From Eledone cirrhosa (Eukaryota), in the NCBI GenBank assembly GCA_964016885.1, contig OZ024745.1, positions 14,880,001 through 14,944,000 of the forward strand: 64,000 nt of DNA, read 5' to 3'. The translations under genes and the position numbers were made by a program. Numbering within the stretch: the first letter of the stretch is position 1; each line of letters opens with the position of its first letter. The notes beneath the pieces were generated by a model, which saw only the letters and a program-made list of their open reading frames with translations, was not told the origin of the DNA and made no database searches. Positions 39,940 through 62,922 of this stretch are shown here, one piece after another.

Positions 39940-41131
39940 GAATTTATAAATTTCCGGTTGGTTGGTTGGTTCAACAACCATATGATTGTTTATATATTGT
40001 CAAAGTTCTTTCGTCACACATTCTGTGACCTCTTCAGTGACTTGGGATTCTTTTTTTGATATTGTGCCTCTCCTTTGTTCTGTCCTACGCCATCTTTTTT
40101 GTGTGTGTGTTGTGTGCTTAATTTGCGCATGTGTTACATCCGGGTGTCTGTGTGTGTTTATATTTGTTTACTTATTTGTTTATTTACATGTTACTGGTTG
40201 GTTGTTTGTATTGGAGCAAATTTTGGATTAGAATAGAAAGAACTAAGAATAAGGTTAATAGAATAAACTCATGGTATGATAGTAATAAATACCAGAGTGT
40301 AATGTTCATCAATACAACCCCTAGAGGTGAATTAGATTACAAATGTAGAAGGGCCCTAGATAAACATAAATTAAATATTAAGAGAGTAGAAAGACCAGGT
40401 ACCTCCATAAAAACACTTATTAGCAATACATACCCTTTTCAAATACCTCCCTGTATAGATAAGAAATGTATAATCTGTAAACTAAGCCCCCATATTAACT
40501 GTAAAACTAGAAATGTAGTATATAGCATAAGATGCATTGAAGGACAATGTAGAGATAAGAATGTAGTGTACATAGGTGAGACAGCTCGTAGTATAGGAGA
40601 ACGGATAAATGAACACTGGCGAGAGCTTCAAGATAGTAAAGAATCATCTGTACTCTACCAACATGCTAAAATAGAACATAAGGGTAAATTAGAAAACATA
40701 GAAATAAAAATAGAATCTACACACTGAAAAGACGCAATGTTTAGACAAATCACAGAGGCAATAAACATAAATAAACACCAACCAAAATCAAATAGAAAAC
40801 ATGAATGGAATAGCAACATCACAACTTACAATTAAGGACAAAATGAAAACACACACACACATAGAACAAACAACCAACAACATGTAAATAAACAAATAAA
40901 TAAACAAATATAAACACATACAGACACCCGGATGTAACACATGCGCAAACTAAGCACACAACACACACAAAAACAAGATGGCGTAGGACAGAGCAAAGGA
41001 AAGGTCAAAAACAAAGAAAAGAATCCCCAGGCAATGAAGAGGTCACAGAATGTGTGACGAAAGAACTTTAACAATATATGAACAATCGTCTGGTTGTGGA
41101 ACCAACCAACCAACTGGAAATTTATAAATTC
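39940..41131 (+). mobile_element. Penelope-like element (Neptune-type), 5'-truncated, with inverted pseudo-LTR
   Basis: Cys-rich linker plus GIY-YIG (NVVYSIRC...YIGETARSIGERINEH) at ~40230-40810. 39940-40209 is the reverse complement of 40866-41131. Flanked by (TA)n. Confidence 0.9.
39999..40041 (-). ncRNA. Minimal type-I hammerhead ribozyme motif (Penelope pLTR)
   Basis: GTCA-CTGAAGA-G-GTCACA/TGTGAC-GAAA-GAAC-TT-TGAC: core, stem II and stem I intact. Sister copy at 41030-41072 (+) has a mutated core (ATGAAGA). Confidence 0.7.
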
Positions 41132-41829
41132 TTAAATATAACACTCGCTCGCTCTATCCCTTTCTCTTTCTTCCCCCTCTCTCTCTCTTTATATCTATAT
41201 ATCTATATATATCTATATATATATATATATATATATATATATATATATATATATATATATATATATATATATATATATATATATATATATATTAAAATAA
41301 CAGATTAAAGTTTAAGCAAAGAATTGCTGCTTTCACCCTTAACGGGATCTTCTGAAACTAACAAAGTCAATCTATGAACGCAGAAGTGAATATTTTAAAA
41401 AACGTTGCAACCTGAGGAAGACAGGAAGACGATACTTTGCTCTACGGTTCTTATATATTTGATATATATTTATCCTTATCGAGCCCTCTTTGGATTTTAG
41501 TCTTCAAATTTATTATTATTACTATATATATATATATATATACTATGGAATGCTCTTCGCTTTTCGCTGCAATGTTTTCTATACCTTTCATTTATATATA
41601 TATATATATATATATATATATATATATATAAAATATTTAAAAAATAATGAATAAAACAAAGAAACAGTTCCTTATATTAAACAAAAAAGTTCATTATTTA
41701 ACGATCGTTTCTAGGACATATATGTGTTAGAATTGCCATGCTTATTCAAAAGATCTATGTACAAAATTATACAAACTATCAAGGAGAATATACATACCAT
41801 CACATATATATGCTGTCTTCAGAAATAAT

Positions 41830-42016
41830 TGTTTCTACTTTAGGCACAAGGCCAGCAATTACCCAGTGCATTACTGGTACTTTATTTTATCGACCCCGTA
41901 AGGATGAAAGGCAAAGTCAACCTCAGCGCGGGATTTGAACTCAGATCGTAAAGGGACGTAACTATGCTGGAAAGCATGGCATCCGATCCTCTACCGATAC
42001 TGCCAATCCACCGCCC
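41830..42016 (-). mobile_element. tRNA-derived SINE (family 1), TSD-bounded copy
   Basis: A box TGGCAGTATCGG and B box GAGTTCAAATCC; body CTTTCATCCTTACGGGGTCGATAAAATAAAGTACCAG; perfect 18-bp TSD GCTGTCTTCAGAAATAAT (41812-41829, 42017-42034). Confidence 0.93.
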
Positions 42017-42394
42017 GCTGTCTTCAGAAATAATGAAGTATATTTATTGATAATAACAACAATTCAAAATTACAGGTCTGTTTGGGAACAGATTTTAAAT
42101 AGACCAATGAAATACATAAAAATTCATCAAGAAAATACAGTTAGGTGTGTGTATATATGTAAGTAACTTCGTTCACAGATATGCATAAAAATGTATGTTC
42201 ACATGCATACGCATGTCGAAAAAGTGTATGTAAATATAAAAATTTAGGGCTAATGTCTCTGTATGTTTATAATCCACAGACAAAATATACATACATATAC
42301 ATATACCGTAAACTTTTGGTAGATTTATCTACATATATATATATATATAGTGACGAAACATAAGTCAATTGCATGAACTCATAATCCTTTATTT

Positions 42395-42450
42395 ACTGCT
42401 ATATATATTTCGATGATAGCCATTGAATGGCTATGAACTCATCAGGCAGT
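42395..42450 (-). ncRNA. Minimal type-I hammerhead ribozyme motif
   Basis: ACTGC-CTGATGA-[ATAGCCA/TGGCTAT stem II]-GAAA-TATATA-TA-GCAGT. Confidence 0.8.
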
Positions 42451-60729: not shown

Positions 60730-62125
60730 AATAGACTACCTGTATTAGACACGGAACTCTGGATTAACACTATAGATGAGAGAGCCCAAATTCTCCACTC
60801 ACACTACGCTAAACCCATGGTCTCCAAATACCTGATACTAAAAAACTCAGCAATGTCCAGTAGTGCTAAGTTTAATATTCTGATCGCAGATTTGGTACGA
60901 GTGATGAAGAATGTGTCCCGCATGTGCGACCCAACAGAAATGGAAAGACACATCCAACACTTCATCAACCGCATGCAGTTCTCTGGCTACAACCAAAGAG
61001 ACAGAATCAGAGGTCGAAGGAGCCACGGAGAAGTATAAGACCCTCATAGAACTGGGCATGAAAAGTATTTGCCCATTATACAGGAGCAAATCATGGAATA
61101 GCTTAGATAGGACTAAACATAAGATAGGGAAAGCCACCTCATGGTACGACAACCAGAGATACCAGAGTGTCATGTTCATGGATGCTACCCTGGAGGGAAA
61201 TTAGCTAACCAGTGTAGAAAGGCCCTGAGAATGACCCACTTAAAGATTAAGGTGGTAGAAAAGCCAGGAACCACCATAAAATGCCTGATCAGCAAAACAT
61301 ACCCTTTTAAGAAAACCCACTGTACTAATAGGAAATGTATTATATGTAAAGTAAACCCCCGGATAAACTGTAAAACTAGAAACGTAGTCTATAGCATAAG
61401 ATGTACAGAGGGTACTTGCAGAAACATGACAACAACATACATAGGCGAGACAGCTCGTAGCATAGGTGAAAGGATAGACCAACACTGGGGGAATTAAAAG
61501 GAAGAACAAACGGTTTAGTACTATAGGAACATGCCAGACAACAACATGGTGGTAACATAGATAACATAGAAATTAGAATAATATCTAAACATAGAAATGA
61601 CCTAGCAGATAGGCAAATCAGAGTGGCCAGTGAAATAGAACTTAGAAGGCCAAAGCTAAACAGAAAAAATGAATGGAATAACAACACCCAAACAAACAAT
61701 ACTGACCTAAGAGAAATATAAATAAATAAATATATACACAAGCACAATAACAACAAACACATATAAACACACACTAGTAAACTAATATAGAATACAATAA
61801 CCAAAACACAGTCACCCAAACGCGATCACACATCAAACACTATACACACACGCAAACGCATGCGCAGAGAAGACAAAAATAAATAAATAAATAAATAAAC
61901 AGATTAAATAAAGATGGCGTAGACATACAATACAACAGGAGGAAACATAATAGCACCACTGACGATGTTGCAGATGTGCAACGAAAGAACCTTGTTAGAC
62001 TATATATATGTGTTCGTGTCTATATTATATCTGTATTTTTGACCGTTGGTCAATCAATTGTAAACATTGAGGAGGGAATGAATGAACTGATATAAAAGAT
62101 ACAGAAGCGAAAACCAATATAAAGT
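60730..62125 (+). mobile_element. Penelope-like element (Neptune-type), 5'-truncated, with pLTR and hammerhead core at 61955-61996
   Basis: RT thumb (LDTELW...HYAKPM...RMQFSGY), Cys-rich linker, GIY-YIG (NVVYSIRC...YIGETARSIGERIDQH); paralog of 40230-40810. Confidence 0.9.
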
Positions 62126-62513
62126 AAAGCATGTCCATAGAATCATTTGATAATATATATACATCATTTCTTCTCCCAATTAGCATAATTAACCACACAA
62201 AAAATCAATTAGACCACGCTATAAGATTAAAAGGCACATATGAAGAAGAAGTAAATAAATAAACGATAGCAGGGTCTTCGCGGCCAACCGCTATAGAATA
62301 TTTACTCAACATTTCAACAGCACGTGGAAATTAATTAAGTATACGGTCAACCATACACAATTAGGTATAAAATTAAAGTTAGAAATGCTTATATACATAC
62401 CAGGATTATATATATATATATATATATATATATATATATATATATATATATATATATATATATATATATATATATATATATATATATATATATATATATA
62501 TATATATATATAA

Positions 62514-62730
62514 ATAAATTACACAATTATCAAAGTTATGTTCAAATCCTTTTATTGCTGACAATCGTTTCTTACAAACTTTCGTTTGGAATCCTTTAAT
62601 TAACCTCGTATAGGAGGTTCATTATATGTACAAACATTGCTAATGTCCCGAACTCCAAACGAAAGTTTGGAAGAAACGATTGTCAGCAATAAAATGATTT
62701 GAACATAACTTTGATAATTGTGTAATTTAT
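62514..62730. repeat. 77-bp inverted repeat with 63-bp spacer
   Basis: 62514-62590 versus 62654-62730, two mismatches; adjoins (TA)n. Confidence 0.9.
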
Positions 62731-62857
62731 ACTCCAGCTCTGTAAAACACGTGATGTTCTTACATTAAGTTATTTCACTTACTGGTAAGCTTCCAACAGT
62801 AATGGTTGCATTCTTTAAGGGTATGTCAATATTTATTTATAAAACTGATCTATATTA

Positions 62858-62922
62858 TATTTTATCTGATGAAAGCACACCATAATTTAACTTGGTGTCC
62901 TTGAAATATGTATAATGAAATA
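62858..62922 (+). ncRNA. Minimal type-I hammerhead ribozyme motif
   Basis: Same family as 49511-49576: TATTTTAT-CTGATGA-AAG.ACACCA/TGGTGT.CTT-GAAA-TATGTA-TA-ATGAAATA. Confidence 0.78.

What the first reader, a model, noticed from the sequence alone, without database searches (positions are those of the whole stretch)
39999..62922. Cluster of about 12 minimal hammerhead ribozymes from several families, with covarying stems
Seen: CTGANGA-stem II-GAAA-short loop-UH-stem I motifs at 39999(-), 41030(+, core mutated), 42395(-), 44144(-), 47302(+), 47845(-), 49123(-), 49511(-), 50009(-), 50557(+), 60280(-), 61955(+, UH mutated) and 62858(+). Stem II sequences differ between families yet stay paired (GTCACA/TGTGAC, GTTGCA/TGCAAC, ACAGCCA/TGGCTGT, CAAATATCATC/GATGATATTTG, ACACCA/TGGTGT). 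Loop III is often palindromic (TGCGCA, TATATA). Known: Penelope-like elements carry minimal type-I hammerheads whose palindromic loop III is thought to allow cleavage as dimers. Inference: an unusually dense and diverse set, many with 6-nt loops and UA cleavage sites.
Basis: partly seen in the sequence, partly recalled or inferred. Interest (0 to 1): 0.75.

Follow-up and report, generated by a model that had tools for sequence, protein, structure and literature searches.

The report
Pile-up of Penelope transposon hammerheads
These predicted self-cutting RNA motifs are real, but each sits in the end-piece of a separately inserted Penelope-like jumping gene in a genome with over 150,000 such motifs, so the cluster is likely ordinary transposon debris, and its interest lies in two odd variants (a kept unpaired cytosine and an A in place of a core U) whose cutting is untested.

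Summary
All 13 motifs are at the stated coordinates and far above chance: 10 strict hits against 0.02 in shuffles. Stems covary across 15 subfamilies. Each motif lies in the 3' end (pLTR) of a 5'-truncated Penelope-like element. About 17 separate insertions of at least 9 subfamilies fill 39.7-63.1 kb. Nine motifs belong to Hydra-clade elements and four to a Neptune/Nematis-type element. Three exact patterns give about 157,000 matches genome-wide. The window is dense (16 in 23 kb, mean 1.2), but roughly 150 such stretches are expected, and nothing points to a joint function. The '6-nt loop, UA site' is a 2-bp stem III with a palindromic tetraloop and an AUA triplet, already published for a Drosophila element. 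Two variants stand out. One clade keeps an unpaired C10.4-Y11.4 in a long stem II. Among 90 copies, 5' ends do not pile up at the cut site. Cleavage is untested.

The parts
39999..40041 (-). Hammerhead, family E1 (short stem II with extra nt after A9, GAAA-GAAC-UU); inverted arm (39763-40209) of one PLE insertion
40206..41140 (+). 5'-truncated E1 PLE body: RT-thumb/linker/GIY-YIG remnant (40170-40787) plus pLTR with mutated hammerhead 41030-41072 (C3A)
   Evidence: (GIY-YIG E 3.7e-4)
41285..41542 (-). Family F insertion: tailless arm 41285-41439(-) with the only complete U4A hammerhead in the window (C3 41354, predicted cut after 41314), plus tail-only arm 41436-41542(+), between (TA)n
42395..42450 (-). 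Long-stem-II hammerhead, family B2 (stem I ACUGC/GCAGU, TATATA, C-C at 10.4); solo 3' end 42327-42517
44144..44198 (-). Long-stem-II hammerhead, family B, intact; 3' end of a truncated Hydra-clade element 43962-45799
45490..45799 (-). Broken GIY-YIG remnant of the family B element (Hydra-type, 39-46% identity to A, C and F proteins)
47302..47372 (+). Long-stem-II hammerhead, family A3 (TGCGCA, C-U at 10.4; 10.1 mutated); solo 3' end 47241-47410
47539..47668 (-). Family F remnant truncated inside stem II (core lost) plus tail arm 47590-47668(+)
47845..47910 (-). Long-stem-II hammerhead, family C (10.1-11.1 mismatched in this copy)
49123..49192 (-). Long-stem-II hammerhead, family A2, intact; arm 48978-49258 with tail
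49511..49576 (-). Long-stem-II hammerhead, family C2 (15.2 mutated); arm 49445-49612 plus tail-only arm 49614-49747(+)
50009..50050 (-). Hammerhead, family E2 (C-U mismatch at third pair of stem I, as in the family majority); arm 49745-50354 plus inverted end 50354-50430
50431..50503 (-). Family F arm truncated at the 5' edge of the core (CAGAAGA at 50500)
50557..50626 (+). Long-stem-II hammerhead, family A2, intact; 50503-50678
50679..50916 (.). Family F fold-back pair (140-bp palindrome 50679-50819 plus tail); cores at 50746(-) and about 50752(+, GAAA mutated to GACA)
60280..60345 (-). Long-stem-II hammerhead, family D, stem II degraded; arm 60232-60401
60470..60727 (.). Family F fold-back pair (palindrome 60588-60727 plus tail); core at 60658(+)
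60726..62117 (+). 5'-truncated E2 PLE: RT-thumb, CX4CxxC linker, GIY-YIG remnant (60802-61658) and pLTR with hammerhead 61955-61996 (U16.1C)
62858..62922 (+). Long-stem-II hammerhead, family C2, intact; arm 62787-63099 with tail

Best explanation
The cluster is a pile of about 17 separate, 5'-truncated insertions of Penelope-like retrotransposons, each keeping the hammerhead motif near the element's 3' end, and it likely has no joint function. Shown: each motif lies 3' of a PLE RT-GIY-YIG frame in longer copies of its family. It is followed by a (TA)n target, and arms are often inverted with a tail on one end only. Inferred, from the Anolis PAc work: the element protein nicks (TA)n and starts reverse transcription at two internal sites about 45 and 130 nt 3' of the hammerhead cut site. 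It usually stops early, so the last 100-300 nt, which hold the hammerhead, are the most amplified part. Inferred: the template is uncut or re-joined RNA, because the copies read through the cut site. Inferred: in active master elements the long-stem and GAAC hammerheads cut slowly, as dimers through the palindromic stem III or with help from the element protein, to trim tandem precursors. The window copies are likely silent, and about half are damaged.
For: Family-to-ORF links: A (800-aa intact frame between an inverted hammerhead pair, L113), C, F; B, D, A2, A3, C3, E1, E2. Window mapped into separate insertions at 78-99% identity to genomic copies. (TA)5 within 250 nt downstream in 171/189 long-stem, 51/60 F and 42/52 E copies, against 22% background. 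Tailed and tailless arms. Genome counts 109,304 (control 388), 23,554 (0) and 24,511 (116). Covariation across subfamilies. Of 90 tail-anchored family A copies, 3 end within 5 nt of the cut site, none at it, and 73 run more than 5 nt past it. PAc hammerhead mutants still insert in vitro, and its cleavage needs protein (PMC11167929 passages). Mixed orientation (7 minus, 6 plus) and private damage.
Against: The density is a real outlier: Poisson P 3e-13; the maximum was 7 in 235 bins of 23 kb on C1, and 4 in 39 spread 10-kb pieces. The 120 kb flanking the window hold only 5 hits. More target does not explain it: (TA)n content at 38-64 kb equals the sample mean, 451 bp per 10 kb. Three same-strand pairs could form hetero-dimers (42445/44193, 47310/50565, 47902/49568). 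No cleavage or expression data were obtained. The overdispersion fit rests on 5.4 Mb of one contig.
Confidence: 0.88

Rival explanations
1. The locus is a host-used ribozyme array or retrozyme-like source: a read-through transcript is cut by hetero-dimers of neighbouring hammerheads into defined linear or circular RNAs.
For: Top-tail density. Compatible same-strand pairs 1.7-3.3 kb apart. Animal retrozymes make circRNAs from tandem type I hammerheads (PMC7229834 passages).
Against: No tandem units of one family; alternating strands; each motif has its own (TA)n-flanked insertion. Seven of 13 carry private changes in or next to the core or stems. The locus was chosen for its density.
Confidence: 0.05
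2. In these elements the hammerhead fold is kept mainly as a binding or folding platform for the element's RT protein, and cutting is dispensable. Family F (U4A) would then be a dead ribozyme that still spread.
For: A4 in 23,287 of 23,554 family F matches, in a young element (97-98% identical long copies) with coding frames. No pile-up of 5' ends at the cut site. PAc core mutants insert normally. Naiads spread without a canonical hammerhead.
Against: All core residues are invariant across long-stem families whose proteins are only about 40-70% identical, though the patterns that found them require the core. Other short-stem Hydra-type families in the genome keep U4. F keeps a complete fold with a U-rich stem I bulge and GUUAA loop II. 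U10.1-U11.1 and U4C variants are known to retain activity (PMC3088659 section 8 and passages).
Confidence: 0.3
3. The density comes from local segmental duplication or satellite-like expansion of a few copies.
For: Some families occur two or more times (A2, C2, E2, F), and a 21.6-kb satellite lies in the same window.
Against: Self-alignment shows similarity limited to the element ends, with different truncation points, orientations and flanks; at least 9 subfamilies from two PLE clades.
Confidence: 0.03

Closest known systems
Hydra-clade Penelope-like elements and their pLTR hammerheads (Craig et al. 2021, PMC8557442; passages, bioRxiv section 11, supplement File S1/S2 table seen)
   Same: C-terminal GIY-YIG, DKT, CxCX5C linker, (TA)n targets, inverted truncated arms with a one-sided tail, type I hammerhead near the 3' end. 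Family F matches the published layout: U10.1-U11.1 in 14 of 26 rows, U17 in 10 of 26, short stem II, paired stem III.
   Different: All 26 published rows have U4 and a GUH triplet. Here nine window motifs have AUA, a 2-bp stem III with a palindromic tetraloop and a 26-36 nt domain II with an unpaired C10.4-Y11.4; family F has A4 and CUU. Copy numbers are 10^4-10^5.
Minimal PLE hammerheads (min-HHR; Cervera and De la Pena 2014, PMC4209133; main text parts 1-3 of 4, supplement parts 1-2 of 3 seen)
   Same: Type I, weak stem III, dimer model, thousands of solo copies from truncated PLEs, pairs on opposite strands 100-700 bp apart, many covarying families per genome. The D. willistoni motif has U-AGCU-A-U-A. 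Family E has the extra nucleotide after A9 and G10.1-C11.1.
   Different: The long-stem families lack the extra nucleotide and often lack G10.1-C11.1. Family E's loop (GAAC) is not palindromic. Counts here far exceed the 2,000-9,000 per genome given there.
Animal non-LTR retrozymes (PMC7229834 passages; bioRxiv 10.64898/2026.07.22.740005 part 1 of 5)
   Same: Type I hammerheads at very high copy number (up to 120,000 in axolotl), linked to PLE pLTRs.
   Different: Retrozymes are non-coding head-to-tail repeats; these are dispersed, inverted ends of protein-coding elements.
Anolis PAc (Poseidon) element in vitro (Frangieh et al. 2024, PMC11167929; passages seen)
   Same: Tail signature from two internal RT starts; uncut RNA used for insertion fits the read-through seen.
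   Different: Different PLE clade and hammerhead layout; its mechanism is carried over here by inference only.

Membership tests
Type I hammerhead ribozyme | Core CUGANGA / GAAA / UH in type I order | tested here: met
Type I hammerhead ribozyme | Stems I and II supported by covariation | tested here: met
   15 subfamily representatives: 86.7% paired against 64.0% shuffled; slid controls 31-46%. The subfamilies are related, so this is not a P value.
Type I hammerhead ribozyme | U at core position 4 (family F) | tested here: not met
   A4 in 23,287 of 23,554 matches
Type I hammerhead ribozyme | Self-cleavage 3' of H17 | not testable with these tools
   No assay; the genomic 5'-end test found no pile-up at the cut site
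Rfam hammerhead families | Match to an Rfam 15 model | tested here: not met
   No hammerhead family at E<=5 or at gathering score
Hydra-clade PLE (families A, B, C, D, F) | Single RT frame with C-terminal GIY-YIG | tested here: met
   L113 800 aa with YRDD and a GIY-YIG-like end; B, C and F pieces. Pfam GIY-YIG only weak (E 0.002, L298) and absent for the others.
Hydra-clade PLE (families A, B, C, D, F) | DKG changed to DKT | tested here: met
   A, B and F have DKT; the C and D pieces do not cover the site
Hydra-clade PLE (families A, B, C, D, F) | CxCX5C linker | tested here: met
   A1, A2, B, C, D, F; not seen in the short A3 and C3 pieces
Hydra-clade PLE (families A, B, C, D, F) | CCHH motif absent from the endonuclease | tested here: met
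   Read by eye from translations, in contrast to family E
Hydra-clade PLE (families A, B, C, D, F) | Insertion into (TA)n | tested here: met
   171/189 and 51/60 against 22% background
Hydra-clade PLE (families A, B, C, D, F) | Generally under 3 kb | tested here: inconclusive
   Family A has a 2.4-kb frame plus about 1.1 kb to the hammerhead
Hydra-clade PLE (families A, B, C, D, F) | Groups with published Hydra proteins in an RT tree | not tested
   The tree used only unnamed database relatives
Neptune/Nematis-type PLE (family E) | C-terminal GIY-YIG with CX2-5CxxC linker and CCHH | tested here: met
   CTNRKCIIC linker and C, C, H, H in L115, L295, L314; Neptune versus Nematis not resolved
min-HHR (Cervera 2014) | Extra nt after A9, G10.1-C11.1, palindromic 15.2-16.2/loop 3 | tested here: inconclusive
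   E meets the first two but not the third; the long-stem families meet the third but not the first
Non-LTR retrozyme | Two or more tandem non-coding units, each with a hammerhead | tested here: not met
   No such tandem in the window; the families have coding parents

The most novel reading that the evidence does not exclude
This genome's Hydra-clade radiation carries two undescribed, working hammerhead subclasses. One has a long stem II whose unpaired C10.4-Y11.4 is a docking site for the element's protein or for stem I, and so licenses protein-assisted cutting. The other (family F) is the first natural U4A hammerhead, rescued by a U-rich stem I bulge contacting the GUUAA loop; if it is dead instead, it is a 23,000-copy natural knockout showing that PLEs do not need their ribozyme.
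Probability: 0.3. Interest if true: 0.62.

Novelty: new variant of a known kind. Interest (0 to 1): 0.36.

Why it matters
The cluster itself matters little. What PLE hammerheads do is still open, and this genome offers sister families for a direct test: canonical short-stem, U4A, and long-stem with a kept mismatch, each with coding copies and 10^4-10^5 genomic records. It also shows that Rfam misses these motifs, which number in the hundreds of thousands in one animal genome.

Tried and rejected
Rfam scans found only AT-repeat miRNA noise. The run search listed no RNA holder; contigs of four runs of unrecorded kind were laid and cannot show expression or ends, so they are not used as evidence. 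A cleavage 'fossil' (5' ends at the cut site) was sought and not found. Higher (TA)n content as the cause of the density was rejected. Segmental duplication was rejected. A U4 sub-lineage of family F was rejected: non-A bases are 267 scattered T/G/C matches, and two further CTGAAGA cases are perfect fold-backs centred on position 4. The other 16 CTGANGA sites in the window gave no fold. The protein search gave 18 unnamed relatives at 29-38% identity. The careful tree did not finish; the quick tree with SH-aLRT support is used, and 4 of its 23 rows fill under 30% of columns. Lunse et al. 2017 (PLE hammerhead dimers) is not held; I know it only from a review passage and recall, and it could already show long-stem or U4 variants. 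Literature searches without a precedent: hammerhead + U4A, 0 papers; hammerhead + stem II + C-C mismatch, 0; octopus + hammerhead ribozyme, nothing relevant beyond Craig 2021; core variant/U4C, 2 listings. Figures (Perreault Fig. 5, Craig Fig. S7) and bioRxiv supplements were not visible. The host was not identified.
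Full report
Observation. All 13 motifs are present at exactly the coordinates given. A strict descriptor finds 10 in 38-64 kb and none in 1-38 kb, against a mean of 0.02 in 200 shuffles. The two copies called mutated are mutated (C3A at 41034; U16.1C at 61991). Rfam detects none of them. They fall into two layouts. Four (families E1, E2) have a 6-bp stem II after an extra nucleotide and GAAA-GAAC-UU. 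Nine (A2, A3, B, B2, C, C2, D) have a 26-36 nt domain II and GAAA-U-NNNN-A-U-A, which is a 2-bp stem III with a tetraloop and an AUA triplet. A covariance model built from 15 subfamily representatives finds only these nine in the window.

Covariation. I clustered 156 unique long-stem copies from the loci held into 31 groups and kept the 14 with two or more members; 17 singletons were dropped. Stem II positions 1-3 and 5-8 pair in 89 of 98 cells (shuffled 62.7) and stem I positions 1-5 in 66 of 70 (shuffled 50.5). On a MAFFT alignment of 15 representatives (from 171 copies, 16 singletons dropped), 86.7% of cells pair against 64.0% shuffled, 16 of 19 pairs change on both sides, and slid controls give 31-46%. 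The subfamilies are related, so these are not P values. Position 10.4-11.4 never pairs: C-C in 11 and C-U in 3 of 14 consensuses. Genome-wide, only 5,262 matches lack C at 10.4, against 109,304 for a near-identical pattern without that condition.

What carries them. The window lies in a 3.0-Gb genome rich in (TA)n, which I take to be an animal's. Longer copies tie every window subfamily but B2 and C2 to a PLE frame; those two are placed by DNA similarity to B and C. Family A has an intact 800-aa RT-GIY-YIG frame between an inverted hammerhead pair (L113); C and F have long frames; B, D, A2, A3 and C3 have pieces. These show DKT, a CxCX5C linker and no CCHH, the marks of the Hydra clade (Craig et al. 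2021, section 11). That clade already includes an octopus family and has published hammerheads (File S1/S2). Family E belongs to a different element, with a 1141-aa frame, a CX4CxxC linker and CCHH, of Neptune/Nematis type. In a quick tree the long-stem families form one clade (SH-aLRT 99) with F as sister (100), apart from 14 unnamed relatives. The unpaired C is thus an inherited trait of one radiation, kept while neighbouring pairs and the proteins diverged. That suggests constraint but rests on about six lineages.

The window. Alignment to genomic copies splits 39.7-63.1 kb into about 17 insertions of at least 9 subfamilies. Three keep broken endonuclease remnants (40170-40787, 45490-45799, 60802-61658). 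Arms are inverted, with a tail on one side only, and (TA)5 follows within 250 nt in 171/189 long-stem, 51/60 F and 42/52 E copies, against 22% background. This is the arrangement described for PLEs.

Missed family. The 140-bp palindromes at 50679-50819 and 60588-60727 and the arms at 41285, 47539 and 50431 are ends of family F. It folds as a full type I hammerhead: a 5-bp plus 9-bp stem I split by a U-rich 7-nt bulge, U10.1-U11.1, a 3-bp stem II with loop GUUAA, a 4-bp stem III and a CUU triplet. Its core reads CAGAAGA. There are 23,554 matches, only 267 without A4. U-U and U17 are typical of published Hydra-clade motifs (14 and 10 of 26 rows), but all 26 rows have U4, and so do other short-stem families in this genome. 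The text of Perreault 2011 that I read lists U4C and U10.1-U11.1 as active variants and does not mention U4A; a search for U4A found no paper.

Is it unusually dense? Three exclusive patterns give 109,304 + 23,554 + 24,511 matches (controls 388, 0, 116), or 1.2 per 23 kb. A fourth gives about 60,000 on the forward strand alone, partly overlapping E2. The window has 16 in 23 kb. The first 5.4 Mb of C1 (mean 0.62, variance 1.43) reach 7; 39 spread 10-kb pieces average 0.67 with a maximum of 4; 20 pieces of the same contig hold 5. A negative binomial with that dispersion puts the window at about 1 in 850, or some 150 bins genome-wide (rough). So it is a true hotspot but not a unique one, and it was selected for being dense. 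(TA)n content there is average, so the reason for the pile-up is not shown. A tolerant, gene-poor setting beside the 21.6-kb satellite is my inference.

How it likely works. By analogy with Anolis PAc, the element protein nicks (TA)n and starts reverse transcription at two sites 3' of the hammerhead, which gives tailed and tailless arms. Early stops leave mostly the hammerhead-bearing end. If cut RNA were the template, 5' ends should pile up at the cut site. Among 90 tail-anchored family A copies (the first 90 of 9,804 matches), 3 end within 5 nt of it, none at it, 14 end 3' of it and 73 run past it. That fits uncut or re-joined templates and cannot tell the two apart. Stem III of the long-stem type costs +4.7 kcal/mol as a monomer and gives -2 to -10.5 as a self-duplex. 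Any cutting is therefore likely dimeric or protein-assisted and slow, as reported for other PLE motifs. Cleavage was not tested.

Novelty. PLE hammerheads, their abundance, opposite-strand pairs, palindromic stem III and even the U-NNNN-A-U-A form are in print, and 120,000 hammerhead-bearing retrozyme copies are reported for axolotl. The long stem II with the kept C-Y mismatch and the U4A family I could not find described, but Lunse 2017 and several figures were not available. This scan has noted both variants on other pieces of this genome, and 862 of its 2,155 notes here concern hammerheads. I reached both variants before reading those notes. Verdict: a real, well-explained pile of known-type elements with two testable variants; interest 0.36.

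Noticed in passing
window 2013-23596: 21.6-kb satellite array, unit about 59 bp (368 copies), with interspersed 37-bp repeats and a strong G skew; no hammerhead motifs in it.
   Followed up: no
L341-L430 (family A copies): 5' truncation hot spot 124-126 nt upstream of the cut site, at a CATATG palindrome, in 21 of 90 copies; it may be a fold-back point or a transcription start.
   Followed up: partly
L461, L462; window 50679-50819, 60588-60727: Family F arms often stop at the 5' edge of the core. Two loci are perfect fold-backs centred on core position 4, so one strand reads CTGAAGA and the other CAGAAGA.
   Followed up: partly
L431-L480 (outside the window): At least five further high-copy hammerhead families with U10.1-U11.1 and short stem II. 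One, tied to a Hydra-type frame about 50% identical to F, appears to have extra bases between the GUC and stem I.
   Followed up: partly
L446 and related loci: An E2 subfamily has GAUU in place of GAAC, which would pair fully in a dimer through G-U pairs.
   Followed up: no
window 41803-42035, also 23677-23750, 27767-27978, 36576-36786, 39306-39417, 49267-49435: A SINE-like family; the 41.8-kb copy is flanked by an 18-bp direct repeat that looks like a target-site duplication.
   Followed up: no
window 53000-53980, 56470-57260, 57420-58260, 24531-25270, 32726-33083: Broken non-LTR retrotransposon pieces (weak zf-RVT and endonuclease hits) and a second repeated coding fragment.
   Followed up: no
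window 55220-55505: A decayed N-terminal fragment of another Hydra-type RT (about 42% to family A) with no hammerhead nearby.
   Followed up: no
window 62514-62730: A 217-bp palindrome (MITE-like) unrelated to the hammerhead families.
   Followed up: no
window 63479-63998: 14-bp minisatellite, 37 copies, running to the window end.
   Followed up: no
L295:1064-4486: The family E2 frame carries a long asparagine-rich insertion before the RT.
   Followed up: no
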